Shown in pieces: positions 34,959 through 45,397 of a stretch of DNA of 64,000 nucleotides. The stretch lies in assembly GCA_022616055.1 (NCBI GenBank), contig JAKEFM010000003.1, positions 5,091 to 69,090 of the forward strand, read 5' to 3'. Source of the DNA: Planctomycetota bacterium (GTDB lineage: Bacteria > Planctomycetota > UBA1135 > JAKEFM01). How positions within the stretch are numbered: the first letter of the stretch is position 1; each line of letters begins with the position of its first letter. The position numbers and the translations under genes are program-made. The notes beneath the pieces are model-generated. The model saw nothing but the letters and a program-made list of their open reading frames with translations, was not told the DNA's origin and searched no databases.

Positions 34959-36272
34959 TCATCGGTCGCGCAGCGCCTTCACGTCGGTCCGAAGGGCCTC
35001 CAGCCTCTCCTCGATGCGCCTCAGGTGGCCCGACACATCAGTATCCAATTTGGCTTCCGCCTCGCGCGGAGCGACGCGATCGAGATCCGCGCGCAGCACG
35101 TAGCCGGGCGGGGTCGTGCTCCACGGCTCCCGGCGATCCATCAGGCCCTTCCCGAGCAGGAACAGCCGCTCCGTGTCGTCCGGGTTGAACGCGTCGACGG
35201 AGAGCTCGAGCCCGTCCGGCATCGTCTGGAACCGGAACTCCGCGCCCCAGGCGCGCGTCAACATGTACAGGTGCAGGACATGCTCCGACACCATCGTGTA
35301 GCTCATCATCGTGACCGTCCGCAGGGCGATCGCGAGCGTGTCGCGCTGCACTTCCACGGGGCGCGCTCGGAGGGAACCGTTGTGGATCACGTAGAGCGTC
35401 GCGTCGACGTCGTCCCAGCTCATCCCCGCACGGTCCGCCGACAGGTATCCGTCGAACACGTTCTGCGGAATGAAGAGGGGTCGGACCACCGCCCCGTCGA
35501 CGTGGAGCTCGTCCCTCCGACCGTGGGTGAACCGCACGGGCGGGTACACCACCGGTATCGCGGCCGATGCGGCCAGCACGTCCCGGAATAGCTCCAGAGC
35601 TTCCGGGCCGCCGCGCGACGCGATCGCGCCGAGATCCCAGACGCAGAAGTGCCCGACGTCGAGATTGGTCGAGCCGACCCAGCACCGCCGGCCCTCGGCG
35701 TGTCGCGCGGCGACGGCCTGCAACAGCGACTCGTCGACGGCCCGCGCGATCGAGGCGCGGAGCGGGGAATTGTCCGCGAGCGACTCGTCCCACAGCACGG
35801 AGGGCATCAACCCCTTCTCGCGGTGCAGGTCGCCGGGCTGGATGCGCCGGAACAGCTCCTCGAGCCGGTCGTCGAACGCGGGGCCCGCGAAGGCGAACGG
35901 CGCCATCAGGGCTCCCACGCTGACCCCGGTCACGCACCGGAAGTCCGGACGGTCGCCCCGGGCCGTCCAGGCCGTGAGGATGCCCGCGCCGAACGCGCCG
36001 TTCACGCCTCCCGAGCTGAGCACCAGCATGTCGAAATCGCGGCGTCCGTCGGCCGGCACGGGGAGGCGCGCGAACTGCGCGACGGCGTCGTCGAACGAGG
36101 CCTGGAACGCTTCGCTGGGGTACCCGTCGACCGCGCGCACATCCGCGAACGCAGGAAGGGGTTCGACTTGGCCCGGATGGTCCGGGAGCGTGGCGAACCG
36201 CGTCGGCCAGCCGCACCCTCCCCCGGCGAGGCCCGCCGCCAGCGCCACGGTGAACCTGTTGGACGCCGCCAT
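34959..36272 (-). CDS. Patatin-like phospholipase lipoprotein
   Basis: LSSGGVNGAFGAG, GVSVG (Ser), HVDGAV (Asp); probable start MAASNRFTVALAAGLAGGGC. The frame stays open further upstream. Confidence 0.88.
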   Translation of the reverse strand: MAASNRFTVALAAGLAGGGCGWPTRFATLPDHPGQVEPLPAFADVRAVDGYPSEAFQASFDDAVAQFARLPVPADGRRDFDMLVLSSGGVNGAFGAGILTAWTARGDRPDFRCVTGVSVGALMAPFAFAGPAFDDRLEELFRRIQPGDLHREKGLMPSVLWDESLADNSPLRASIARAVDESLLQAVAARHAEGRRCWVGSTNLDVGHFCVWDLGAIASRGGPEALELFRDVLAASAAIPVVYPPVRFTHGRRDELHVDGAVVRPLFIPQNVFDGYLSADRAGMSWDDVDATLYVIHNGSLRARPVEVQRDTLAIALRTVTMMSYTMVSEHVLHLYMLTRAWGAEFRFQTMPDGLELSVDAFNPDDTERLFLLGKGLMDRREPWSTTPPGYVLRADLDRVAPREAEAKLDTDVSGHLRRIEERLEALRTDVKALRDR

Positions 36273-37007
36273 GCGGAGAGCGACGGGTCTTCGATCGACG
36301 GCCTCGAGCGCCCGCTTCGCCTCGCTCGGGAGCGTGGGGCGCTCCTCCGGCGAGTGCGGATGGGCCGCGGCCGACTCCTCCGCGAGAAACAGCTTGTAGA
36401 TCGGTCGTGACATCGCATGCCTCTCTCTGGAGGTTATCCGGGCGACGACGCTCATCGACCACGCTCCATGTCCTGCAGCGCTCCGACCTTACTTGGCCGG
36501 GCCGTGAAGCGCGAAGACGGCCCGCGGCGCCGATTCGAGACGAGGGTCGCCGTCGGGGATGAGAGCGGGTCGGAGGGGACATCCTGCGGTCGTCTTCGCG
36601 GACGGCGGGCCTCCGTCTCAATCTATCCCCTCTGTCTCCAGCCCCGCGACGAGTCGATCCTCGGACGGGGCGTCCCACCCGGGCTCAGGTCGCACCGAGC
36701 CGGTGGGTCCCCATGGCGTCCTTGCGGGGGGGGGCCAGCCTCTCCTCCTCGAACCTCCCGGCGAGCGGCGCGCCCGCACCCCCTTCCGCGCCCGCGCTCC
36801 GGAGGTTGCCGCGCGCCGCGCCCGCCGGCCGGGAGGTGGGCTCCGCCCGCCGGCCACCCAGGGTTCCAGGGGGCGTAGAAACGGCCGGCACGCGCGGGAG
36901 GCTCCGGCGGACTCGGATGCCGCGCGTCGCGGCCGTTCTCGGGGTGTCTCGAGGGGCGGGCGACCGCCCCGGTCCACCCTGCCGGACCTCCGGTTCGGGC
37001 TGGAGGG

Positions 37008-38468
37008 TCAGGGACCGAAGACCTTCCGCTCCGGGTCGTAGCGGAGCCCTTCGCGCTCCTTCTCCCACCACTCCCGCAGCGCCGCGAGCGCCTGTTTGGC
37101 CGCCGGGCCGTCCGGGTCGGAGAGGCGGGCCGCCTTCTCCTCGCGCGCGCGCAGGCAGCGGTTCGCCGCCTCGAGGCGAACCAGTCTCGCCTCTCCCCTC
37201 TCGGCGAGGTCGAGGAGGGGAGGGATCCCGGCGGTGGATCCGAGATCGAGGAGCGCCGCCGCGATCCGGAGCCTCACCCACTCGTCGTCGATCCCCCGGT
37301 CGAGGGCGGCGCGCAGCGAGGGGACGGCCGAATCGTCGCCGAGCGCCCCGAGCGCCTCGGCCGCCTTCTCGACGACCCCCGGCTCAGGATCCGCGAGGGC
37401 CTTCGCGAGGGCGGGGACCGCCTCGCGCGCGCCCCGCTTCGCCAACTCCTCGGCCGCGTGAGCGCGGACGTTCGCGTGCTCGTCGCCAAGCTGGTGGAGG
37501 AGTTCCGCCACGCTCGTTCCGAGGCCGTGCTCGGGCTCCCCGTGGGGGTGGCCGTGGTCGATCCCCTCGGCCCGCTCCCCCCCGGGAAGGACGAGGAGGA
37601 GGAGACCCACGGCCGCGGCGGTGCACCCGATCGCCCCGCCGGAGCGGGAGAGACGGGACGCCCCTCTCCGAGCCGCTCGTGCGGCGGCCGCGAGGAGGAG
37701 CGCCGCCGCGAAGCAGACCATGATCGTCGGTCCGCTCGGACGGTCGTAGGAGACGAGGAGTCCGGCTCCGCTCACGAGGGCGCCGACGGTCCACCCGACC
37801 GCCAGGCGCGCCCCGATCCCCCCGGCGAGGAGGGCCGCGAAGACCGCCGGGGCGATCAGGTAGCAGAAGACGAGGAGCACCCCCGCGATCTGGACGCTGC
37901 TCGTGATGACGACCGCGAAGGTGAGATAGAAGACGAAGTCCCAGACGCGGACGCGGAGGCCGCGGCGATAGGCCTCCTCCGGATCGAGGGAGATCAGGAG
38001 GAAGCGGCGGCGAAGCGCGAAGTGGAGGGCCCCGATCGCGGCGTAGAGGGCCGCGGTCTTGCCGACCTGCGCCGGGGTCACCCAGACGATGCTCCCGGCG
38101 AGGAGGTTCTTCAGGTGCTCCGCACCGTGGGGCGAGCGCGCGGCGAGGAGGATCGCGGCGGCGCTCGCGACCGCGTAGGTGAGGCCGATCACCGCCTCCT
38201 GCGGCACGCGCTCGGTCCGGGTCCGCGTGAGGGCGAAGACGGCCGCCCCCCCCACCGCGAACAGGAGCGACCAGAGGTAGGCGGGTAGTCCGGTGGGGTC
38301 GTCTCCACGCAGGAACGCGACCGACCCGCCGAGGGCCGCGATCTGCGCGAGCGCGATGTCGACGAAGATGACCTTCCGCGCGAGCACGTGGATCCCGAGG
38401 TAGACGTGGATCCCCGTGAGGACGAGGCAGGCGAGGAAGGGGAGGGCGAGGATCTCGAGACGGTTCAT
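37008..38468 (-). CDS. ZnuB/TroCD-type metal ABC permease fused to His-rich linker and HEAT repeats
   Basis: GIHVLARKVIFVDIALAQIAALG, EAVIG, LLAGSI.WV, SSVQIAGVLLVF; extra TM, DHGHPHGEPEHG, then HEAT repeats (DEHANVRAHAAEELA, DPEPGVVEKAAEALG). Confidence 0.9.
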   Translation of the reverse strand: MNRLEILALPFLACLVLTGIHVYLGIHVLARKVIFVDIALAQIAALGGSVAFLRGDDPTGLPAYLWSLLFAVGGAAVFALTRTRTERVPQEAVIGLTYAVASAAAILLAARSPHGAEHLKNLLAGSIVWVTPAQVGKTAALYAAIGALHFALRRRFLLISLDPEEAYRRGLRVRVWDFVFYLTFAVVITSSVQIAGVLLVFCYLIAPAVFAALLAGGIGARLAVGWTVGALVSGAGLLVSYDRPSGPTIMVCFAAALLLAAAARAARRGASRLSRSGGAIGCTAAAVGLLLLVLPGGERAEGIDHGHPHGEPEHGLGTSVAELLHQLGDEHANVRAHAAEELAKRGAREAVPALAKALADPEPGVVEKAAEALGALGDDSAVPSLRAALDRGIDDEWVRLRIAAALLDLGSTAGIPPLLDLAERGEARLVRLEAANRCLRAREEKAARLSDPDGPAAKQALAALREWWEKEREGLRYDPERKVFGP

Positions 38469-39499
38469 CCGGGGGCGGCCAGAGCTCCCGCGACCTCCTC
38501 GACCACCTTCCCGTGGAAGGTGACGACGTCGCGCTCCCCTCCGAACCCGCCGACCTCGAGGGGGAGGACGAGGACGGAGACCCCCGTCTTCTCCTTCAGG
38601 TAGTCGGTCGAGCGGCGCTCGACGAAGGGGCGCGTGACGAGGAAGGGGATCTTCCCCCTCTCGAGGAGCTCGCGGACCTCCTCGCGGTGCTTCGCGGAGG
38701 GCTCGATCCCGGGCTTCGGCTCCACGTTCGCCGCGACCGTGAGCCCGAACCGCCGGGCGAAGTAGGACCAGTCGCGGTGGTAGGTGACGACCGACTTCCC
38801 GGCGTGGGGCGCCATCCTCGCCAGCCAGCCGCCGAGGGACTCGCGGAGGGGCTTCCCCGTCGCGCCCGGAAGGGCGAGGGCCTCCTCCAGCCGGCCCGAC
38901 TCGGCGAGACGGACGAGGCGGTCCCCCCCCACTTCCGCGAGGAGGGCCGGTCCGAAGAACGCCTCTTCCAGCCGTCGCCGGAACGCCTTGCGGCGCTCCT
39001 CGAAGTACCGGGCCTCGGCCGGCGCGGCGCGGGCAAGGGCGGAGGCGATCGTGTCCGCCACCGGAAGCGCGTTCAGTGGGTCCGTGAGGTAGTGCGGATT
39101 CCCGAACGGGTGGACGTCCCCCTCGGCGCGGCTCGCTCCCGCGGCCGGGACCTCGAGGACCGAGATCCCGGCGGAGCAGTCGACGAAGCCGCTCCCCCCT
39201 CGGACGATCCGGGGGTTCCGGGCCCCCTCCGTGATCGGCCCGAGCCATCCGACCTCGTAGTCGAGGCCGTTCACGAGGAGGAGGTCCGCGTCGCGCAGGG
39301 TCGCGATGAAGGAGGGCTTGGGGTCGAGGAAGTGAGGGTCCTGCCGGGGCGCACAGAGCGCCTCGACCGTGACGCGGTCCCCGCCGACCTCCTCGCAGAT
39401 CGCCTTGAGACTCGGCAGGGTCGCGACGACGCGGACCGGCGAGGCCGCGCTCGTGGCGGGGAGGAAGGAGACCAGGAGAGTCGAGATGAGGGTTTTCAT
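38465..39499 (-). CDS. ZnuA/TroA-family metal-binding substrate-binding protein
   Basis: Signal peptide; QDPHF, GDVHPFGNPHY, VTYH, VEPKPGIEPSAKH. Confidence 0.93.
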   Translation of the reverse strand: MKTLISTLLVSFLPATSAASPVRVVATLPSLKAICEEVGGDRVTVEALCAPRQDPHFLDPKPSFIATLRDADLLLVNGLDYEVGWLGPITEGARNPRIVRGGSGFVDCSAGISVLEVPAAGASRAEGDVHPFGNPHYLTDPLNALPVADTIASALARAAPAEARYFEERRKAFRRRLEEAFFGPALLAEVGGDRLVRLAESGRLEEALALPGATGKPLRESLGGWLARMAPHAGKSVVTYHRDWSYFARRFGLTVAANVEPKPGIEPSAKHREEVRELLERGKIPFLVTRPFVERRSTDYLKEKTGVSVLVLPLEVGGFGGERDVVTFHGKVVEEVAGALAAPG

Positions 39500-39508
39500 C
39501 GGGATCCC

Positions 39509-40885
39509 TTAGAACTTGTGCGCCGCATGGGTGCCGATCAGGAACTCGAGCTGGAGGACGAAGGAGGAGACGAGGCGGTCGTCGAGGTGGGCGGCCCGGT
39601 CGAGCCCGTACTCGAACCGCAGTTTCGAGAACTCCGTCGGGTACCAGGTGAGGGCGAGAGCGCCGCGAGCGCGTCGGTCCCTAAGGGGATCGTCCGACCG
39701 CGCAAGCCCTCCGTCCCCGTTCGCGTAGTCGACCCGCCCCCCCGCGGTCCATCGGTCGAAGAAGCCCCAGACGACCTGCGAGTAGCCTCCGAAGTCGTCC
39801 AGGGTCTCGTCGGGGGCCCCGGTCGACGGGTCGGCCGCCGCCTCGAGGTCGCGCCAGGCGGCCTCCGTCTGCCAGGAGACGAAGGGGAATCCCCGCCTCG
39901 CCTCGATCGGCTTCCAGCGCAGGTAGAGGTCGGCGCCGTAGATCGCCGTCCTCTCGTGCGGACCCGTCGCGTTGTCCCCGAACATCGCCGAGACCCCGCC
40001 GAGGAGGGTCGTCGTCTCGGAGAGGTCGGTCGAGGCGGAGAGGCGCAGCGTCGTGGCCAGGTCTCGCACCCCCTCGACGTCCTCGTCCAGGAGGGAGTGC
40101 CCCCCGAGGGTCTGCGTGGGGTCGGTCGGGTCGTCCGTGGGCTCGAAGGAGAAGCTCCTCCCGTTCTCCCCGTCGGCCTGCTGCAGGCTCGCGAGTCCCT
40201 CGAGGAAGAAGGAGGTCGGCGCGATCCAGGAGAGTTCTAGCCCGGGATTGCGGAAACCGTCCGGGCCGAAGAAGCGCGGCAGGAAGAGGGGGATGGTCGA
40301 GAACTCCCACGCGTGGGCATGCATGGAGTTGTGCCGCCCGAAGTGGGTGAACCACTCGCCCGCGAGGAGGCGCAGGTTCCCCGGCAGCGCCCGGGTCTTC
40401 CCGTAGGCTTCCTCGAGCTCTAGCCCAGTCTCCCCCTCCTCGACCGACATCACCGGGATCACGGTGAGGTCGAAGTAGGGGTCGACCGCGTTCTCGAAGA
40501 CGAACTCGAGGTTCGTGATCTTGAACCCTCGGGGGACCGGGTCGTGGCCGCCGAAGAGCCCGGGATCCTCCCTGGAGAAGGCGGCGGCGTCGAAGAGGAG
40601 GTCGACGGAGATCCTCGGGTTGAGGAGGGAGGAGGCCTGCGGGGCGGCGGGGCCCGCCCCCGGGGCCTCGGAGGGCTTTGCGAGAAGGCGGTCGAGGGCT
40701 TCGTCGAGGCCCGACCGGGGGGCGGTCTCGGGTGTCCGCTGCGCCCCGAGCTCCCGCTCGAGGCGGCGGATGCGCTCCTCCGCGGCGCGAAGGCGCTCCT
40801 CGACCGTGGGCTCCTGCCCCTGCGCCCGCGAGAGCGGGGCGAGGAGGAGGCCTGCGGCGAGGCTCTGAAGGCGGAAACGGTCCAT
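39509..40885 (-). CDS. Outer-membrane beta-barrel/porin of metal-uptake operons (C-terminal HAAHKF family)
   Basis: Signal peptide and coiled coil; NPRIS, GGHDP, VDPYF, LEEAY, FGRHNSMHAHAW, PTEFSKLRFEY, IGTHAAHKF. Confidence 0.85.
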   Translation of the reverse strand: MDRFRLQSLAAGLLLAPLSRAQGQEPTVEERLRAAEERIRRLERELGAQRTPETAPRSGLDEALDRLLAKPSEAPGAGPAAPQASSLLNPRISVDLLFDAAAFSREDPGLFGGHDPVPRGFKITNLEFVFENAVDPYFDLTVIPVMSVEEGETGLELEEAYGKTRALPGNLRLLAGEWFTHFGRHNSMHAHAWEFSTIPLFLPRFFGPDGFRNPGLELSWIAPTSFFLEGLASLQQADGENGRSFSFEPTDDPTDPTQTLGGHSLLDEDVEGVRDLATTLRLSASTDLSETTTLLGGVSAMFGDNATGPHERTAIYGADLYLRWKPIEARRGFPFVSWQTEAAWRDLEAAADPSTGAPDETLDDFGGYSQVVWGFFDRWTAGGRVDYANGDGGLARSDDPLRDRRARGALALTWYPTEFSKLRFEYGLDRAAHLDDRLVSSFVLQLEFLIGTHAAHKF

Positions 40886-40889
40886 GCGT

Positions 40890-40986
40890 GCGCGCTCCTT
40901 GAGAGGGAAGGCCGTGCCGCCCATGGACGGAGGGCGGGCAGGGAAGGGGACGACGCGGAGCGGGCTAGGCCGCGGGAGGAGCGCGC
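40890..40986 (-). promoter_or_regulatory. Anti-SD/SD stem between the leader peptide RAP codons and the porin RBS
   Basis: mRNA GCGCGCUCCU (40986-40977, codons R-A-P) is the exact reverse complement of AGGAGCGCGC (40899-40890), the porin SD region. Confidence 0.75.
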
Positions 40987-41318
40987 GCGTCGGCGAGCCG
41001 GACGCCGCATCCGGCGGTGGGCGGCTCGGAGAGGGGCGGAGCGGCGGGCGAGTCGAGGGCGGGACCGGCGAGGAGGAGGGGCGCGACGAGCACGGGGCCC
41101 GCGTTCGCGCGGTACCAGCGACAGACCGGGCAGGTCCCTTCGAGGTGGACGTCGGGGGCGCCCGAGGAGCCGGCAGGGGCGAGCCGCGGATCGTGCGGGA
41201 TCGCGTCCGCGTGGCGCGGCTCGGCGCCGAGGAGTCCGTGGGTCGAAGGGGCGCCGAGGAGGGCGAGGAGATAGAGCGCGAGGAGGAGGAGCGCCCCGGA
41301 GCCTCCGAGCCGGCGCAT
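40965..41318 (-). CDS. DUF2946-like leader peptide with signal/TM segment, CxxC and C-terminal RAPP arrest motif (117 aa)
   Basis: MRRLGGSGALLLLALYLLALLGAPSTH...HLEGTCPVCRW...ADARAPPAA*; preceded by TTGACC-18 nt-AAGAAT. Confidence 0.85.
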   Translation of the reverse strand: MRRLGGSGALLLLALYLLALLGAPSTHGLLGAEPRHADAIPHDPRLAPAGSSGAPDVHLEGTCPVCRWYRANAGPVLVAPLLLAGPALDSPAAPPLSEPPTAGCGVRLADARAPPAA

Positions 41319-41353
41319 GACGGGGGGATTCTTCGGTCGGCCTGGTTCCGGGG

Positions 41354-42547
41354 TCAAGCCTTGGGGGCGTGGCGGACCCGGAGGAAGCGGCGCTTGCCGA
41401 CGTTGAGCAGGACCCCTCCCTCGGGGAGGGTCAGCTCCCCCTCGATCGAGTCGACGACGGCCCCGTCGACCCGGACCCCCCTCCCCGCGACGAGGCGGCG
41501 CGCCTCCGAGGTCGAGGGGGCGCACTTCGTCCGGACGAGCAGGTCGACGATCCCGATCCGCGCCTGCGGGAGGGAGACCTCGGGGATCTCGGAGGGGACC
41601 CCTCCCTCCCGGAAGACCCGGTCGAACTCCTCCTCCGCCCCCCTCGCGACCTCCGCGCCGTGGAACCCCGCCACGATCTCGCGGGCGAGCCGCGCCTTCG
41701 CCTTCCGCGGGTTCTCGCCGGGGGCGAGGAGCACCTTCACCTCCTCGTCGGGGAGGTCCGTGAGGAGGGAGAACCACGAGGGGAGGAGACGGTCGGGGAT
41801 CGACATCACCTTGCCGAACACCTCGCGAGGGGGCTCGAGGACCCCGATGAAGTTCCCGTAGGTCTTCGACATCTTGCGCCCGTCGGTCCCCTCGAGGATG
41901 GGCGTCGTCAGGCAGACCTGCGGCTCCTGTCCCTCCTCGGCCTGGAGGTCGCGGCCGACCAGGAGATTGAAGAGTTGCTCGGTCGCCCCGAGCTCGACGT
42001 CCGCGCGGACCTTGACGGAGTCGTAGCCCTGCATCAGGGGATAGAGGAGCTCGTGGATCCCCACGGCGTCTCCCTTCTTCATCCGCTGCGCGAAGTAGTC
42101 GCGCTCGATCATCCGGGCGACCGTCCCGCGCGCGGCGAGCCGGATCGTGTCCGCAAAGGTCATCGCGCGGAACCAGTCGCCGTTGCGGACGACCTCCGCC
42201 TTGCCGAGATCGACGACCTTCCCCGCCTGCTCGCGGTAGCGCTCGAGGTTGCGGTCGATCTCCTCCGTCGTGAGGGCGGGGCGCTGCTTCTGCCGGCCCG
42301 TCGGGTCCCCCACCATCGCCGTCCCGTCCCCGATGATCAGGACCGCCTGGTGACCGAGGTCCTGGAACGCGCGGAGCTTCCGGAGGACGACGCCGTGGCC
42401 GAGGTGGACCTCGGGGCCCGTCGGGTCCCAGCCGAGCTTGACGCGCAGGCGCCGGCCGGAGGCGAGCCGGCGGCGCAGTTCCTCACCCGTGACGAGGTCG
42501 ACCGTCCCCCGCCGGAGGATCTCGAAGGGGTCGGCTCGGTCCTTCAC
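41354..42547 (-). CDS. tyrS: Tyrosine-tRNA ligase
   Basis: KLGWDPT, HLGH, YPLMQGYD, KMSKT, C-terminal S4 domain (STSEARRLV). Confidence 0.97.
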   Translation of the reverse strand: MKDRADPFEILRRGTVDLVTGEELRRRLASGRRLRVKLGWDPTGPEVHLGHGVVLRKLRAFQDLGHQAVLIIGDGTAMVGDPTGRQKQRPALTTEEIDRNLERYREQAGKVVDLGKAEVVRNGDWFRAMTFADTIRLAARGTVARMIERDYFAQRMKKGDAVGIHELLYPLMQGYDSVKVRADVELGATEQLFNLLVGRDLQAEEGQEPQVCLTTPILEGTDGRKMSKTYGNFIGVLEPPREVFGKVMSIPDRLLPSWFSLLTDLPDEEVKVLLAPGENPRKAKARLAREIVAGFHGAEVARGAEEEFDRVFREGGVPSEIPEVSLPQARIGIVDLLVRTKCAPSTSEARRLVAGRGVRVDGAVVDSIEGELTLPEGGVLLNVGKRRFLRVRHAPKA

Positions 42548-43536
42548 CGCGGGGCGGGAGCGCTCGCCACGGACTCGAGGCGCGCGCGCCAGATCTCGGG
42601 ATCGGGGGGGAGGTCGTCCCGGCGCAGCAGGATCCGCAGCGCCGCCGCGGCGCCGCGCTGCCGCCTCGGATCGGCCCCGGAGAGCGCGACCGCGCAGGCG
42701 GCGACCGCCTCCTCCCTCTGCGCGTCGGTCACGAAGGCCGCGGCGAGGAGGACGTGACGGTCGAACCGGGGCGAGGGGGAGGAGAGGGCGAGGCGCAGGG
42801 ACTCGAGGGGCCGCTCCGCGACCCCTCGGTACCCCGGCGGGCAGACCCGGATCCGGCAGGGCCGGAACCGCACGCGCTGGAGCGGCAGGGCCCCCCCTCC
42901 CGCCACGAAGGCCGCTGGACGCAGCTCCGCGGAGATCTCGACCTCCCGCAGCGCGTAGGCCGCCCCGGGCGGGGTCGGGATCTCCTGGAGGACGCTCGCC
43001 TCTCCGCCGGCGGCGACGTCGAGGGGGCCGATCGTGAAGGGCCGGGTTTCCCGCTCCCGGAGGTCGGTCCCGTCGACCCGCCGCTCGACGGAGGAGATGT
43101 CGAAGATCCCCGCCCCACCCCGCCCTCCCTCGCCGCCGGGGATGGCGATGGGGACGGGTCCGTCGTTCCGCACGCGGAGCGCCAGCCTCATCGGCTCGCC
43201 CGCCTCGACGACCTCGCTCGCCGGCTCGAGGCGCGCGCCCGACTCCAGGCGCGCCCTCCACTCCTCCCCTTCGAGGAGGGCGGCGAGCCCCCGGATGGTC
43301 GGGGCTAGCTCGGCGGGCGCTTCTCCCTCCTGGAGACGCTCCACGCGGTCGCGGGCCGCCTCGAGGTCCCCTTCCCGCAGGAAGCGGGCGGCCTCGTCGA
43401 TCGCCCGCCGGACGAGCGCCTCGCGGACCGCTTCCTCGGAGGAGGGAGCGGGAGGCGGCGAAGGGGGGCGGGCTCCCGCCCGGTCGCTCCGGCAGGCGAG
43501 CGCTCCGAGGAGGAGGAGGGCCGACCCGCGCCGCAC
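42544..43536 (-). CDS. Hypothetical lipoprotein (helical plus Ig-like domain)
   Basis: MRRGSALLLLGALAC lipobox; stop overlaps the tyrS start. Confidence 0.75.
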   Translation of the reverse strand: MRRGSALLLLGALACRSDRAGARPPSPPPAPSSEEAVREALVRRAIDEAARFLREGDLEAARDRVERLQEGEAPAELAPTIRGLAALLEGEEWRARLESGARLEPASEVVEAGEPMRLALRVRNDGPVPIAIPGGEGGRGGAGIFDISSVERRVDGTDLRERETRPFTIGPLDVAAGGEASVLQEIPTPPGAAYALREVEISAELRPAAFVAGGGALPLQRVRFRPCRIRVCPPGYRGVAERPLESLRLALSSPSPRFDRHVLLAAAFVTDAQREEAVAACAVALSGADPRRQRGAAAALRILLRRDDLPPDPEIWRARLESVASAPAPR

Positions 43537-43546
43537 GCGGGAGGGC

Positions 43547-45397
43547 CTAGGCCGGGGTAGCGCCCGGGACGTTCGGCTCGTCGGGGTCCGCAGGGGCGGG
43601 CTCGACCGGGGCCCCCTCGGCCGCGGCGGGGGCCTCCGCGGACTCGTCCTTCCCGGGGGTCTGCTTCGCGGCCTCGGCGGCCGCCTTCTGGGCGGCGCGC
43701 GCCTTCTTGCGCTCCGCCTTCTCCCGCTCGCGCCGGTCGATCTCCTCGTTCTCCGCGAAGTCCGCGTGGACGAAGGAGAGCCCGATCTTGCGCTCGTCCC
43801 GGTCGAGGCGGATCACCCGGACCTCGACCTTGTAGCCGACCTTCACGACCTCCTCGGGGGTGGCGATCTTGCGGTCGGAGAGCTCGGAGATGTGGAGGAG
43901 CCCCTCGAGGTCCTCCTCGAGCCGGACGAACGCGCCGAAGGAGGTGATCTTCGTCACCGTCCCGGTGACGAGGTCCCCGACGTGGTAGTTCGCGGGGATC
44001 TGGTCCTGCCAGGGGTCGGGGAGGAGCTGCTTCATCCCGAGCGAGATCCGCTTCTTGTCCGCGTCGAGGGCGAGCACGACGCACTTCACCGTGTCCCCCT
44101 TCTTCAGCACCTCGGAGGGGTGGGTGACCTTCTTCGTCCAGGACATGTCGGAGATGTGGAGGAGGCCGTCGATCCCCTCCTCGATCTCGACGAACGCCCC
44201 GTAGTTCGTGAGGTTGCGGACCTTCCCCTCGAGGACCGTCCCCGGCCCATAGCGCCCCTCGACGCCGATCCAGGGGTTCTGCTCGGCCTGCTTCATGCCG
44301 AGCGAGATCTCCTGCTTGTCCTTGTTGATGTCGAGGACGACGACCTCGACGGGGTCGCCCGCCTTGACGATCTCGCTCGGGTGGTTGACGCGGCGCGTCC
44401 AGGACATCTCCGAGACGTGGACGAGCCCCTCGACGCCGTCCTCGAGCTTCACGAACGCGCCGTAGGACATCAGGTTGACGACCGAGCCCTTGTGCCGGGA
44501 GCCGGCGGGGTACTTCGTCTCGATGTCCTCCCACGGGGAGCGGGACTTCTGCTTCAGGCCGAGCGCGATCCGCTCGCGCTCCTTGTCGATCCGCAGCACG
44601 CGGACCTCGATCTCCTCCCCCTCCTTCACGATCTCGGAGGGGTGGCCGATCCGGCCCCAGGACATGTCCGTGACGTGGAGCAGGCCGTCGATCCCGCCGA
44701 GGTCGACGAAGGCGCCGAACTCCGCGATGTTCTTGACGATCCCGCGGCGCATCTGCCCCTCGGCGACCTCCGTCAGGAGCTTCTCCTTCGCCTCCGCGCG
44801 CTGGCGCTCGAGGAGCCGGCGGCGGGAGACGACGATGTTCATCCGCTCGGGGTCGATCTTGATGATCTCGGCCTCGACCTCCCGCCCGATGAACTCCCCG
44901 ACGTCCTGGATCCGGCGCGTGTTCACCTGCGAGGCGGGGAGGAAGACCGGGACGTGGTCGACGTCGACGAGGAGGCCTCCCTTGATCTTCCGCTGCACGG
45001 TCCCCTTGATCGTGTCCCCCTCGTGGTAGGTCTTGACGACCCGCTCCCAGGCGCGCAGGCGGTCCGCCCGCCGCTTGCTGACCATCGCGGTGTTCGTCTC
45101 GTCGTTCATCCCCTCGTAGAGGATCTCGAAGGTCTCCCCCACCGCGGGCGCCGGGCCGTCCCGGAACTCCTCGGCCGGCACGGTCCCCTCGGCCTTCCCG
45201 CCGAAGTCGACGACCGCCCCCTCCGGGGTCACCTCGATCACGCGGGCCGAGACGATCGCCCCCGTGGCGACGTCCTTCACCGTGTCCTCGAGGGTCTTCG
45301 TGAGGCTCTCGACCGGGAGGGTGAGGGCGGCGCCCGCCCGCCGCGCCAGCTCCTCCTCGGGGAGATCGAACTTCCGGACCAGCTCCCGACCGCGCAT
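43547..45397 (-). CDS. rpsA: 30S ribosomal protein S1
   Basis: Six S1 repeats (FLPASQ, FGAFVDLGGIDGLLHVTDMSW, EGLVHVSEMSW, DGLLHISDMSW, EGLLHISEL). Confidence 0.97.
   Translation of the reverse strand: MRGRELVRKFDLPEEELARRAGAALTLPVESLTKTLEDTVKDVATGAIVSARVIEVTPEGAVVDFGGKAEGTVPAEEFRDGPAPAVGETFEILYEGMNDETNTAMVSKRRADRLRAWERVVKTYHEGDTIKGTVQRKIKGGLLVDVDHVPVFLPASQVNTRRIQDVGEFIGREVEAEIIKIDPERMNIVVSRRRLLERQRAEAKEKLLTEVAEGQMRRGIVKNIAEFGAFVDLGGIDGLLHVTDMSWGRIGHPSEIVKEGEEIEVRVLRIDKERERIALGLKQKSRSPWEDIETKYPAGSRHKGSVVNLMSYGAFVKLEDGVEGLVHVSEMSWTRRVNHPSEIVKAGDPVEVVVLDINKDKQEISLGMKQAEQNPWIGVEGRYGPGTVLEGKVRNLTNYGAFVEIEEGIDGLLHISDMSWTKKVTHPSEVLKKGDTVKCVVLALDADKKRISLGMKQLLPDPWQDQIPANYHVGDLVTGTVTKITSFGAFVRLEEDLEGLLHISELSDRKIATPEEVVKVGYKVEVRVIRLDRDERKIGLSFVHADFAENEEIDRREREKAERKKARAAQKAAAEAAKQTPGKDESAEAPAAAEGAPVEPAPADPDEPNVPGATPA

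What the first reader, a model, noticed from the sequence alone, without database searches (positions are those of the whole stretch)
40886..41357. CxxC/RAPP leader peptide whose arrest codons base-pair with the next gene's Shine-Dalgarno: candidate metal-sensing ribosome-stalling switch
Seen: a 117-aa ORF hidden inside a shadow ORF, with an N-terminal hydrophobic export segment, His residues, a CPVC motif and a C-terminal RAPP two codons before the stop. The R-A-P codons (GCGCGCUCCU, 40986-40977) are the perfect 10-nt reverse complement of AGGAGCGCGC (40899-40890), which contains the SD of the porin gene (ATG 40885). Established: DUF2946-type leaders (Bordetella CruR, Rhodobacter CutF) and RAPP arrest peptides (ApdA/ApdP) couple stalling to translation of the downstream gene. 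Inference: a ribosome stalled on RAPP melts the stem and frees the porin RBS, while metal binding or export pulling relieves the stall. Here the control would act on a ZnuAB-type uptake operon in a probable Planctomycete, outside the characterised proteobacterial copper systems.
Basis: partly seen in the sequence, partly recalled or inferred. Interest (0 to 1): 0.82.

Follow-up and report, generated by a model that had tools for sequence, protein, structure and literature searches.

The report
Metal-sensing stalling leader before porin-ZnuAB operon
A small gene ahead of a probable zinc-uptake operon in a Planctomycete looks like a known kind of metal-sensing "stalling" leader peptide, and the codons where the ribosome should stall can pair with the next gene's ribosome-binding site, a layout that recurs across the phylum.

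Summary
ORF 41318..40965 (-) encodes 117 aa with a hydrophobic N-terminus, CPVC (63-66) and RAPP (112-115) two codons before the stop. GCGCGCTCCT (40986-40977) is the exact reverse complement of AGGAGCGCGC (40899-40890), 4 nt before the porin ATG.

The ORF is a divergent DUF2946 (CruR/CutF-type) leader. Pfam scores below threshold (15.5 vs 23.7 bits), but the CxxC-to-RAPP gap is exactly 45 residues, and Pfam-positive DUF2946 genes hold the same position before homologous porin-ZnuA-ZnuB operons in other Planctomycetota.

In 39 such loci, the leader's 3' end tends to complement its own porin start region:
- The best partner lies in the arrest window in 21 of 39 loci, against 3.5 expected.
- Synonymous-recoding tests are significant in two hold-out sets.
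- The first Pro codon is the rare CCT in 18 of 39 loci, against 2.7 expected.

Against it:
- The 54%-identical congener has two mismatches.
- About half the loci show no signal.
- Equilibrium folding predicts almost no unmasking in the window.

Stalling, the metal sensed and the direction of control are all inferred. Verdict: a new variant of a known kind, probably zinc-linked.

The parts
41328..41357 (-). Sigma-70-like promoter, TTGACC-18 nt-AAGAAT. The -35 hexamer overlaps the tyrS stop codon. The -10 ends 9 nt before the leader ATG, so the mRNA would be leaderless or nearly so.
   Evidence: 1 site found against 0.0 in 50 shuffles; the blocks CTTGAC and CCGAAGAAT are invariant in 4 of 4 related loci, while the spacer between them varies. 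The function itself is inferred.
40965..41318 (-). Leader ORF of 117 aa plus stop; a divergent DUF2946 (CruR/CutF-type) candidate arrest peptide.
   Evidence: for the sequence. Pfam PF11162, E = 0.031, 15.5 bits, profile positions 5-117 of 117. for the homologs and the invariant H27, H36, H42, C63, C66 and W68. for positional equivalence with Pfam-positive DUF2946 genes.
41238..41318 (-). N-terminal MRR followed by a hydrophobic stretch (residues 1-27); a putative Sec signal or membrane anchor.
   Evidence: Read from the sequence. R2, R3, L13 and Y16 are invariant in A3. No signal-peptide predictor was run.
41121..41132 (-). CPVC codons (residues 63-66); a putative metal-binding motif.
   Evidence: CxxC is invariant in 9 of 9 family members and present in 22 of 23 curated loci (the one exception is cut by a contig end).
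40974..40985 (-). R112-A113-P114-P115 codons (CGC GCT CCT CCC); the candidate arrest site. The P-site is expected on Pro114 and the A-site on Pro115.
   Evidence: The gap from CxxC is 45 residues. The P/A-site assignment is by analogy with the CruR toeprint (PMC12992588 passages).
40977..40986 (-). 5' arm of the stem (GCGCGCUCCU); the anti-SD embedded in the arrest codons.
   Evidence: It uses the rare codons GCT and CCT.
40916..40939 (-). Intergenic hairpin (GCCCGCCC ... GGGCGGC) inside the 79-nt C-rich spacer.
   Evidence: It is predicted in all 4 related loci, with a different sequence in L007. Coordinates are approximate.
40890..40899 (-). 3' arm of the stem (AGGAGCGCGC), containing the porin Shine-Dalgarno sequence; ATG at 40885.
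39509..40885 (-). Outer-membrane porin, 458 aa: signal peptide, N-terminal helices and a beta-barrel, with conserved His residues.
   Evidence: AlphaFold2 model, pLDDT 82.1, pTM 0.75; best Foldseek matches are OmpT, OprP, OprO and DcaP (E from 5e-11); invariant H189, H191 and H453; no Pfam or NCBIfam match.
38465..39499 (-). ZnuA-type periplasmic metal-binding protein, 344 aa; starts 9 nt after the porin stop.
   Evidence: PF01297, E = 1.6e-42. AztC is the best NCBIfam match but scores below its cut-off. His at the third ligand position, as in Synechocystis ZnuA; the Mn-binding MntA has Glu there.
37008..38444 (-). ZnuB-type ABC permease (ABC-3) fused to C-terminal HEAT repeats, 478 aa.
   Evidence: PF00950, E = 4e-28, and HEAT_2, E = 2.1e-17; conserved in the genus.

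Best explanation
The 117-aa ORF is a divergent member of the DUF2946 (CruR/CutF) family of nascent-peptide metal sensors. It is the first cistron of an operon with its own promoter. The operon encodes an outer-membrane porin, a ZnuA-type binding protein with a zinc-like His3 site, and a ZnuB-HEAT permease.

Proposed mechanism (inferred, not shown):
1. A ribosome translating the leader arrests at R-A-P|P, with Pro114 in the P-site.
2. While it sits there, nucleotides 40986-40977, which are the anti-SD, are held inside the ribosome.
3. The porin SD, 78 nt downstream, is therefore free, and a second ribosome can start the porin.
4. znuA and znuB follow through 9-nt and 20-nt gaps.
5. When the arrest is relieved, the ribosome terminates two codons later, the 10-bp stem forms and masks the SD. 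By analogy with CruR, relief would come from metal binding to the nascent CxxC/His segment. This fits an uptake operon that should be off when metal is plentiful.
6. Rho acting on the C-rich untranslated RNA may reinforce the off state.
For: Family membership:
- CxxC, RAPP and an exact 45-residue gap. The CruR paper reports 45, conserved within 1-2 residues in more than 2000 members.
- Full-length but sub-threshold Pfam match.
- Gaps of 41-48 residues (mode 44) in 22 Planctomycetota leaders.

Context:
- tyrS-leader-porin-znuA-znuB synteny holds in 3 genomes of the genus.
- 11 of 13 fetched DUF2946 loci in the phylum have a porin homolog next, and 9 have ZnuA after it.
- The porin is found in 133 of 401 sampled Planctomycetota genomes.
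- Leaders are present in front of it in 11 of the 31 porin-bearing loci of that batch by the first pattern (a 12th, L064, has a longer tail), and in 20 of 38 further loci.

Stem in the window and its close kin:
- 10 bp in the window, 12 bp in L006, 9 bp in L023.
- The RNAalifold consensus of 4 loci contains it. Of the 10 pairs, 6 are kept in all four loci, one (U:A to C:G in L007) changes on both sides and is kept, one lacks a base in L006, and two are broken in L007.
- Rare GCT-CCT codons supply the two U's. Recoding p = 0.002 and 0.006. Genome-wide frequency 1.1%.

Generality:
- Own-locus pairing beats cross-locus pairing: none of 20000 derangements reached the observed value, for 13, 12 or 11 loci.
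- Position test: 14 of 23 loci against 2.11 expected. Hold-out set B: 5 of 10 against 1.06, P = 0.0014. Pre-registered set C: 7 of 16 against 1.43, P = 2e-4.
- Recoding, Fisher combined p: 9e-5 and 2e-7 for 22 loci without the window; 0.008 and 0.017 for set B; 0.003 and 0.015 for set C.
- First Pro codon is CCT in 11 of 23 loci (1.28 expected) and in 7 of 16 (1.38 expected).

Geometry and precedent:
- In 11 of the 23 loci the longest helix is 7 nt or more, and its leader arm lies at -18 to +16 nt from the P-site codon; this range follows from how the window was defined.
- CruR arrest at RAPP with Pro1 in the P-site, and the CutF stem-loop shielding the cutO SD, are published.
Against: - Pfam is below the gathering score: 15.5 vs 23.7 bits. 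Only 3 of 9 family members match at E <= 1.
- The fold energy of the region is ordinary (z = -0.25).
- In L007 (54% identity) the stem has two internal mismatches, and the MFE pairs the SD elsewhere. In L023 the MFE also uses another partner.
- Ensemble folding: blocking the footprint raises start-region accessibility only from 0.42 to 0.445 on average (not significant), and from 0.30 to 0.37 in the window. Removing the arrest window gives 0.31 vs 0.32 in the window, with recoding p = 0.19.
- An intergenic segment (GCGUCGUCC) can pair with the SD in 4 of 4 loci.
- Roughly half the loci show no individual signal. In set C the 'unique best partner' version of the position test is not significant (3 of 16, P = 0.17).
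- I curated the porin starts in sets A and B by eye.
- CCT enrichment could reflect arrest kinetics rather than pairing.
- There are no expression data. The only RNA evidence is one 151-nt contig from an RNA library, covering 40906-41042.
Confidence: 0.5

Rival explanations
1. The mechanism is CruR-like. The arrested ribosome mainly blocks Rho from loading on the C-rich leader 3' end and spacer, so transcription continues into the porin gene. The stem with the SD is secondary or incidental.
For: - Rho is encoded in the genome: 2 matches over the Pfam cut-off.
- The leader's last third and the spacer are C-rich and G-poor (C 0.49-0.60, G 0.22-0.31 in 78-nt windows), whereas the porin body is balanced.
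- This is the only mechanism shown for a DUF2946 member with RAPP and the 45-residue gap (CruR).
- The spacers here (43-191 nt) are 'long', as noted for cruR homologs.
- Ensemble folding predicts little SD unmasking.
Against: It does not explain two observations:
- Synonymous codons at the leader's 3' end are biased towards pairing with the locus's own start region.
- The best partner of the start region falls in the arrest window far more often than expected.

C-richness also follows partly from the Pro/Ala/Leu-rich peptide. No rut site or terminator was tested, and no intrinsic terminator was found.
Confidence: 0.25
2. Plain translational coupling. Any ribosome translating to the leader's end opens the stem and allows porin initiation. 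The RAPP motif only lengthens this window or has another role, and there is no metal-dependent switch.
For: - The anti-SD arm lies 9-18 nt before the stop, so a terminating ribosome also covers it.
- Helix arms in other loci lie between the arrest codons and the stop.
- There is no evidence here for metal dependence.
Against: - CxxC, the three His residues, the fixed gap and R[AGS]PP are conserved across the family. These are features of a sensor, not of a spacer ORF.
- CruR and CutF both depend on these motifs for metal control.
Confidence: 0.12
3. The ORF encodes an exported metal-binding protein or chaperone of the uptake system with no cis-regulatory role, and the complementarity in the window is chance.
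For: - Hydrophobic N-terminus together with Cys and His residues.
- 1.1% of comparable sites in this genome reach a 10-nt complement by chance.
- Ordinary fold z-score.
- Many loci lack any pairing signal.
Against: - The recurrence of the pairing with different sequences in independent loci, the codon bias and the CCT enrichment argue against chance.
- An arrest-prone RAPP two to six codons before the stop is avoided in ordinary proteins (PMC12992588 passages).
- CutF is undetectable as a protein in vivo.
Confidence: 0.06

Closest known systems
CruR (Bp2923) of Bordetella pertussis, DUF2946 family (PMC9426467; abstract, passages and section 10 read)
   Same: - Small first cistron with a hydrophobic N-terminus, CxxC, RAPP close to the stop, and 45 intervening residues.
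- Precedes an outer-membrane import channel gene across a long C/G-rich spacer.
- The logic suits an uptake operon: arrest means on, metal means off.
   Different: - The downstream genes are a TonB-independent porin plus ZnuA/ZnuB, not a TonB-dependent transporter plus PepSY.
- Different phylum.
- The Pfam score is below threshold.
- CruR acts through Rho-dependent termination. Here the arrest codons themselves complement the next gene's SD.
- The metal is probably not copper (inference).
CutF of Rhodobacter capsulatus (PMC9973294 and bioRxiv 10.1101/2025.02.05.636593; abstracts, passages, one section each read)
   Same: A DUF2946-like exported leader whose C-terminal proline stall lets the ribosome open an mRNA helix that shields the next gene's Shine-Dalgarno sequence.
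   Different: - CutF has CxxxC and PPP, and needs EF-P.
- Its stem-loop, with its own anti-SD, lies in the intergenic region.
- Copper induces the stall, to switch on a detoxifying oxidase.
- Here the anti-SD lies in the arrest codons, and the operon is for uptake.
ApdA/ApdP and other RAPP/RGPP arrest peptides (PMC10951233 and PMC7897499, search listing only; PMC12992588, passages read)
   Same: An R-A-P-P motif near the C-terminus of a small upstream ORF. RSPP, found in the distant relatives P0003, P0005 and P0009, is reported as partly permissive.
   Different: Those peptides monitor Sec/YidC and lie upstream of secretion genes. They have no CxxC/His sensor segment.
SecM-secA, MifM-yidC2, and the ermC and cat leader attenuators (recalled, not read here)
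   Same: A ribosome paused on leader codons that form one arm of a helix masking the downstream ribosome-binding site.
   Different: Different peptides and signals. None is metal-responsive or linked to ZnuABC.

Membership tests
DUF2946 / CruR-CutF leader peptides (PF11162) | Match to the Pfam HMM at or above the gathering score (23.7 bits) | tested here: not met
   15.5 bits, E = 0.031, although the alignment spans profile positions 5-117 of 117; 3 of 9 family members match at E <= 1, best 0.0047; 14.4 bits in the six-frame search of the organism's own genome.
DUF2946 / CruR-CutF leader peptides (PF11162) | Conserved CxxC motif | tested here: met
   CPVC at residues 63-66. Invariant in 9 of 9 sequences.
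DUF2946 / CruR-CutF leader peptides (PF11162) | C-terminal RAPP a few residues before the stop | tested here: met
   RAPP at 112-115 of 117. The 7 complete sequences of the 9 in the alignment have RAPP or RSPP plus 2 residues; the other 2 are cut short before this point.
DUF2946 / CruR-CutF leader peptides (PF11162) | Gap of about 45 residues (within 1-2) between CxxC and RAPP | tested here: met
   Exactly 45. The criterion is taken from PMC9426467. The range is 41-48, mode 44, in 22 Planctomycetota leaders.
DUF2946 / CruR-CutF leader peptides (PF11162) | First gene of a metal-homeostasis operon, same strand, with an intergenic spacer | tested here: met
   79-nt spacer, then porin, ZnuA and ZnuB. 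Pfam-positive DUF2946 genes sit in the same place before homologous porins.
DUF2946 / CruR-CutF leader peptides (PF11162) | N-terminal Sec-type signal sequence | tested here: inconclusive
   MRR plus a run of about 14 hydrophobic residues, seen by eye. No signal-peptide predictor was available.
DUF2946 / CruR-CutF leader peptides (PF11162) | Ribosome arrest at the proline motif, and metal-dependent control of the downstream gene | not testable with these tools
   Needs toeprinting, reporters and metal titration.
CutF-type SD-masking switch | Downstream SD paired in the untranslated mRNA, with the partner reachable by the stalled ribosome | tested here: met
   The stem is in the MFE and the centroid and in the consensus of 4 loci. 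Its arm lies at -7 to +2 from the P-site codon.
CutF-type SD-masking switch | Stalling predicted to free the SD | tested here: inconclusive
   Equilibrium model: window 0.30 to 0.37 and 0.31 vs 0.32. Across 23 loci, 0.414 vs 0.443, p = 0.07. Real codons mask more than recoded ones, p = 0.008.
CruR-type Rho-dependent attenuation | Rho present, and a C-rich, G-poor untranslated tract after the arrest site | tested here: met
   Whether it works as a rut site cannot be tested here.
Sec/YidC monitoring substrates (ApdA/ApdP class) | Encoded upstream of a protein-localization gene | tested here: not met
   The downstream genes are a porin, ZnuA and ZnuB.

The most novel reading that the evidence does not exclude
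Planctomycetota carry a widespread class of zinc-uptake operons (porin-ZnuA-ZnuB) controlled by a nascent-peptide sensor rather than, or in addition to, a Zur-type repressor. In this class the Pro-Pro arrest codons, often CCU-CCN (an anti-SD look-alike), are themselves the element that masks the next gene's ribosome-binding site. One short stretch of mRNA would then encode both the stall and the switch. This would be the first translational arrest sensor for zinc.
Probability: 0.3. Interest if true: 0.8.

Novelty: new variant of a known kind. Interest (0 to 1): 0.6.

Why it matters
DUF2946 leaders are so far understood from two proteobacterial copper systems that work in opposite ways: CruR acts through Rho, with metal relieving the stall, and CutF opens an SD stem-loop, with metal inducing the stall.

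This locus and its roughly 40 relatives extend the family in three ways:
- to another phylum;
- to a porin plus ZnuAB importer that looks zinc-type;
- to a compact layout in which the arrest codons double as the anti-SD.

The codon-level signal gives a clean, peptide-neutral experiment: rare GCT/CCT in the window, and CCT at the first Pro in 18 of 39 loci against 2.7 expected (summed by hand). Synonymous changes should break the control, and compensatory changes should restore it.

It also flags a conserved His-bearing porin family as the likely outer-membrane entry for the metal. In the papers I could search, no text links arrest peptides with ZnuA. The main texts of the CutF 2023 and EMBO J 2025 papers do not mention zinc, ZnuA or porin. 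Their supplements were not readable and may list such neighbours.

Tried and rejected
- **Rfam scan of 38000-44000.** Only a chance mir-483 hit below threshold. No known riboswitch or leader family.
- **Intrinsic terminator scan.** None found.
- **Other DUF2946-like hits in the own genome** (L001, L003, L004; 12-21 bits). None has a CxxC...RAPP ORF. Treated as noise.
- **Class-level search with the leader alignment.** Only the genus (3 of 339 genomes) gave real matches. The 15 hits at E of about 1e-3 carried no CxxC...R[AGS]PP ORF.
- **The search for related loci with the 5-sequence alignment.** It had no usable conserved stretch. The 3-sequence alignment found 1 metagenome locus and 2 genome loci.
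- **DNA for the distant relatives P0003, P0005 and P0009.** The RSPP branch was therefore not tested for pairing.
- **Sequencing runs.** 20 runs were listed, mostly DNA. The four I laid were contigs only and mostly gave short 80%-level matches from other organisms.
  - One DNA contig (X11, 245 nt) spans both stem arms, and no difference is listed within either arm.
  - One RNA-library contig (X17, 151 nt) covers 40906-41042.
  - Neither shows transcript ends, levels or attenuation. Parts without cover are not evidence.
- **First RNAalifold run.** It used a mis-cut L006 fragment lacking the 5' arm. I repeated it correctly. The first run is kept only because it exposed the alternative intergenic partner of the SD.
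- **Loci dropped before counts:**
  - L006, L023: close kin of the window.
  - L096, L113, L119, L134: same genus as a kept locus.
  - L086, L100: gaps of 539 and 573 nt.
  - L082: no CxxC.
  - L056, L060, L066: no porin hit.
  - L064: leader tail of 13 residues, missed by the first pattern and never added.
  - 18 of the 38 set C loci had no leader by the rule.
- **Low-GC family f41.** These loci have porin-ZnuA but no leader.
- **Not done.** Complex prediction and a fold of the leader were not run. I did not look for a Zur gene or Zur box.
Full report
**1. The observation**

On the minus strand an ORF runs from ATG 41318 to TAG 40967-40965. It encodes 117 residues: MRR, a hydrophobic stretch, several His, CPVC at 63-66, and RAPP at 112-115 followed by Ala-Ala-stop. 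GC by codon position (0.84/0.63/0.89) is coding-like for a 73% GC window.

GCGCGCTCCT (40986-40977) spans the end of the Ala111 codon, then Arg112 CGC, Ala113 GCT and Pro114 CCT. It is the exact reverse complement of AGGAGCGCGC (40899-40890), which ends 4 nt before the ATG at 40885. The upstream ATG at 40924 in the porin frame is not kept in relatives, so 40885 is the start.

**2. What the ORF is**

Pfam gives DUF2946 (PF11162) at E = 0.031 and 15.5 bits. That is below the 23.7-bit cut-off, but the alignment runs end to end. [quoted passage not shown] Here the gap is exactly 45.

An exhaustive phmmer search found 5 proteins at E <= 0.001, four of them small homologs. A profile search of 5.8 billion proteins found 8; three carry a source name, each a Planctomycetota MAG. 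In the 9-sequence alignment R2, R3, L13, Y16, H27, H36, H42, G53, C63, C66 and W68 are invariant. Every complete sequence ends A-R-(A/S)-P-P-x-x-stop. The ORF is therefore a real, conserved gene and a divergent DUF2946-type leader.

**3. Surroundings**

- *Upstream.* tyrS ends at 41354. A sigma-70-like TTGACC-18-AAGAAT overlaps its stop codon (1 site against 0.0 in shuffles). Its two blocks are invariant in four related loci while the spacer varies. The -10 ends 6-9 nt before the leader ATG, so the leader may be translated from a leaderless or nearly leaderless mRNA (inference).
- *Porin.* The next gene encodes a 458-aa protein with no Pfam or NCBIfam match. An AlphaFold2 model (pLDDT 82, pTM 0.75) shows N-terminal helices and a beta-barrel. 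The closest structures are OmpT, OprP, OprO and DcaP, so 'porin' is right. It has invariant His residues: H189, H191 and H453.
- *ZnuA and ZnuB.* Nine nucleotides later comes a ZnuA-type binding protein (PF01297, 1.6e-42). Twenty nucleotides after that comes a ZnuB-type permease fused to HEAT repeats. In alignments to solved structures, ZnuA has His at the third ligand position, as in Synechocystis ZnuA, where the Mn protein MntA has Glu. That points to zinc, by inference only.
- *No ATPase.* No ATPase gene lies in the operon. The next gene is patatin-like.
- *Synteny.* rpsA-tyrS-leader-porin-znuA-znuB is kept in the two other genomes of the genus.

**4. The same operon type across the phylum**

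- PF11162 scores over its cut-off in 16 of 401 sampled Planctomycetota genomes. The ORFs are His-rich with CxxC and R[AG]PP, 2-6 residues from the stop.
- Of 13 such loci fetched with their downstream DNA, 11 have a homolog of the window's porin directly after the leader, 9 have ZnuA after that, and 6 have ZnuB.
- Searching with the porin, 133 of 401 genomes have it. ZnuA follows in 27 of the 31 loci with a porin hit.
- A CxxC...R[AGS]PP leader precedes the porin in 11 of the 31 porin-bearing loci of that batch by the first pattern (one more, L064, has a longer tail), and in 20 of 38 further loci. The low-GC family f41 has the operon without a leader.
- The window's leader is thus the positional equivalent of bona fide DUF2946 genes. 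This settles its family better than the HMM score does.

**5. Is the stem more than chance in the window?**

- The 131-nt region folds no better than shuffles (z = -0.25), although the stem is in the MFE and the centroid.
- In the organism's own genome, 9 of 791 comparable SD-start sites (1.1%) have a 10-nt perfect complement covering the SD within 30-150 nt upstream.
- The two U's of the arm come from GCT and CCT, which make up 2.7% of Ala and 5.7% of Pro codons in 1187 long ORFs of this genome.
- Redrawing synonymous codons with the peptide fixed gives p = 0.002 for helix length and p = 0.006 for duplex energy.
- Among close kin the stem is 12 bp (L006, 94% identical protein), 9 bp (L023, about 78%), and 8 of 10 with two internal mismatches (L007, 54%).
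- RNAalifold on the four loci recovers the stem. Of the 10 pairs, 6 are kept in all four loci, one (U:A to C:G in L007) changes on both sides and is kept, one lacks a base in L006, and two are broken in L007.

**6. Does the idea generalise?**

The sequences differ too much for a column-wise covariation test. I therefore asked, locus by locus, whether the 'arrest window' is complementary to that locus's own porin start region. The arrest window runs from 12 nt before the Arg codon to the stop. The start region is -25 to +3.

- *Set A (13 loci, including the window).*
  - Own-locus helices averaged 7.1 nt against 5.3 for cross-locus pairs.
  - Duplex energies averaged -22.2 against -15.1 kcal/mol.
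  - None of 20000 derangements reached the observed value, also without the window.
  - Within-locus controls agree. These were other leader windows, other porin windows, and shuffles; their combined p-values used a floor of 1/300, which is too generous for about 100 control windows.
- *Set B (10 further loci).* Added as a hold-out.
- *Recoding test.* Fisher combined p over 22 loci without the window is 9e-5 (helix) and 2e-7 (energy), with 7 of 22 loci individually at p <= 0.05. Set B alone gives 0.008 and 0.017.
- *Position test.* The longest complement to the start region, anywhere in the leader plus spacer, lies wholly in the arrest window in 14 of 23 loci against 2.11 expected. For set B it is 5 of 10 against 1.06 (P = 0.0014, ties counted as hits).
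- *Set C.* I then wrote the rules down and applied them, with automatic start choice, to 38 new loci. Twenty had a leader and 16 were kept.
  - Recoding: 0.003 and 0.015.
  - Position: 7 of 16 against 1.43 (P = 2e-4). Only 3 of 16 count as a unique best partner (P = 0.17).
  - All.
- *CCT enrichment.* The first Pro codon of the motif is CCT in 11 of 23 loci (1.28 expected from the porin's codon usage) and in 7 of 16 (1.38 expected, P = 3.5e-5). CCU-CCN reads CCUCC, the core of an anti-SD. In six DUF2946 loci of the phylum that are not followed by the porin, it is CCT in 0 of 6 (read).
- *Summed by hand.* Position, 21 of 39 loci against 3.5 expected. CCT, 18 of 39 against 2.7.
- *Geometry.* In 11 of the 23 loci the longest helix is 7 nt or more; its leader arm lies between -18 and +16 nt of the P-site codon, a range set by how the window was defined, and its other arm covers -22 to -4 of the porin start.

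**7. What speaks against a clean switch**

- About half the loci show no individual signal.
- In ensemble folding, the start region pairs with footprint nucleotides at P >= 0.3 in 13 of 23 loci. Yet forbidding those nucleotides raises the start region's unpaired probability only from 0.42 to 0.445 (not significant). In the window the rise is from 0.30 to 0.37.
- With the upstream leader left out, the window gives 0.31 with the arrest window and 0.32 without it. Across loci the figures are 0.414 and 0.443 (p = 0.07). Real codons do mask more than recoded ones (0.414 vs 0.452, p = 0.008).
- In the window's genus an intergenic GCGUCGUCC can pair with the SD in 4 of 4 loci.
- Equilibrium models of GC-rich RNA are weak guides, but they do not back a large effect.
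- I curated the porin starts in sets A and B by eye.
- CCT enrichment could instead serve the arrest itself.

**8. Mechanism**

The published parts are these. CruR arrests at RAPP with the first Pro codon in the P-site, and needs RAPP and CxxC for copper control through Rho. CutF's proline stall lets the ribosome open a stem-loop over the cutO SD.

For the window I propose the CutF-like route, with the anti-SD placed inside the arrest codons, combined with CruR-like logic in which metal relieves the arrest. That logic suits an importer. Rho is present and the leader end plus spacer are C-rich and G-poor, so Rho-dependent polarity may add to this or be the main route.

Arrest, the sensed metal (zinc is my guess, from ZnuA and the Cys2/His3 pattern) and the direction of control are all inferred.

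**9. Known versus new**

Already in print:
- DUF2946 leaders as metal-sensing uORFs.
- RAPP/RGPP uORFs upstream of metal genes in many phyla.
- SD-masking stems opened by stalled ribosomes.
- The CruR paper notes a few DUF2946 members in Planctomycetes.

Not found in what I could search:
- A link to ZnuA-type importers or to this porin family.
- An anti-SD formed by the arrest codons.

The checks behind that: 0 papers combine 'arrest peptide' and 'ZnuA'. The 2 papers holding Planctomycet + ZnuA + porin look unrelated, judged from their titles and abstract starts only. The main texts of PMC9973294 and PMC12992588 have no 'zinc', 'ZnuA' or 'porin'. Supplements were closed and could hold neighbour tables that include them.

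**10. Verdict**

- Observation: confirmed.
- Interpretation: partly supported. It is strengthened by phylum-wide comparative evidence and weakened by folding models and by patchy conservation.
- Novelty: a new variant of a known kind.
- Interest: 0.6.

Noticed in passing
window 41328-41357 (-) and leader ATG 41318: The conserved promoter-like TTGACC-18-AAGAAT ends only 6-9 nt before the leader's ATG in all four related loci, and no SD precedes that ATG. The leader may be translated from a leaderless mRNA. The -35 overlaps the tyrS stop codon.
   Followed up: partly
window 37008-38444 (-): The ZnuB-type permease carries a C-terminal HEAT-repeat domain (about residues 310-430). The operon has no ABC ATPase gene; the next gene, at 34959-36455, is patatin-like. 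In some other Planctomycetota loci there is a gap of about 1 kb between the znuA and znuB matches (L053), which could hold an ATPase gene.
   Followed up: no
window 39509-40885 (-); alignment A4: The porin family has invariant His residues (H189 and H191 in an FGRxNPxHPHxW-like motif; H453, with H456 nearly invariant, in the C-terminal GxHGAHxF). This suggests a metal-selective channel. No Pfam or NCBIfam model covers it, yet it occurs in 133 of 401 sampled Planctomycetota genomes.
   Followed up: partly
loci L068, L069, L071-L079, L081, L084, L085, L093 (low-GC loci, GC 0.39-0.45, mostly family f41): These loci have the porin gene, most with ZnuA after it (L084 ends before it could be seen), but no CxxC...RAPP leader upstream. 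The leader is therefore an optional add-on, and these lineages must control the operon some other way.
   Followed up: no
L030, L039, L046: In three other Planctomycetota genomes, Pfam-level DUF2946 leaders precede genes whose products start with a prepilin-type N-terminal motif (GFTLIELLVVIA-like) rather than a porin. This would be a different regulated cargo.
   Followed up: no
39 loci of sets A, B, C: The first Pro codon of the R[AG]PP motif is CCT in 18 of 39 loci, against about 2.7 expected from the neighbouring porin gene's codon usage. It may serve the pairing (CCUCC) or the arrest itself; this is not resolved.
   Followed up: partly
own genome, 8 other sites: Eight other AGGAG-start sites in this genome have a perfect complement of 10-12 nt covering the SD within 150 nt upstream. 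Their positions were not printed or examined, and some may be further translational switches.
   Followed up: no
G000:C187:11404-11625 and G000:C374:118193-118417: Two separate matches to the Rho RNA-binding domain score over the Pfam cut-off in this genome (115 and 67 bits). This may mean two Rho-like genes.
   Followed up: no
L118: One leader ends ...ARAPPARGPPTIA*, with two arrest-type motifs in tandem (RAPP then RGPP).
   Followed up: no
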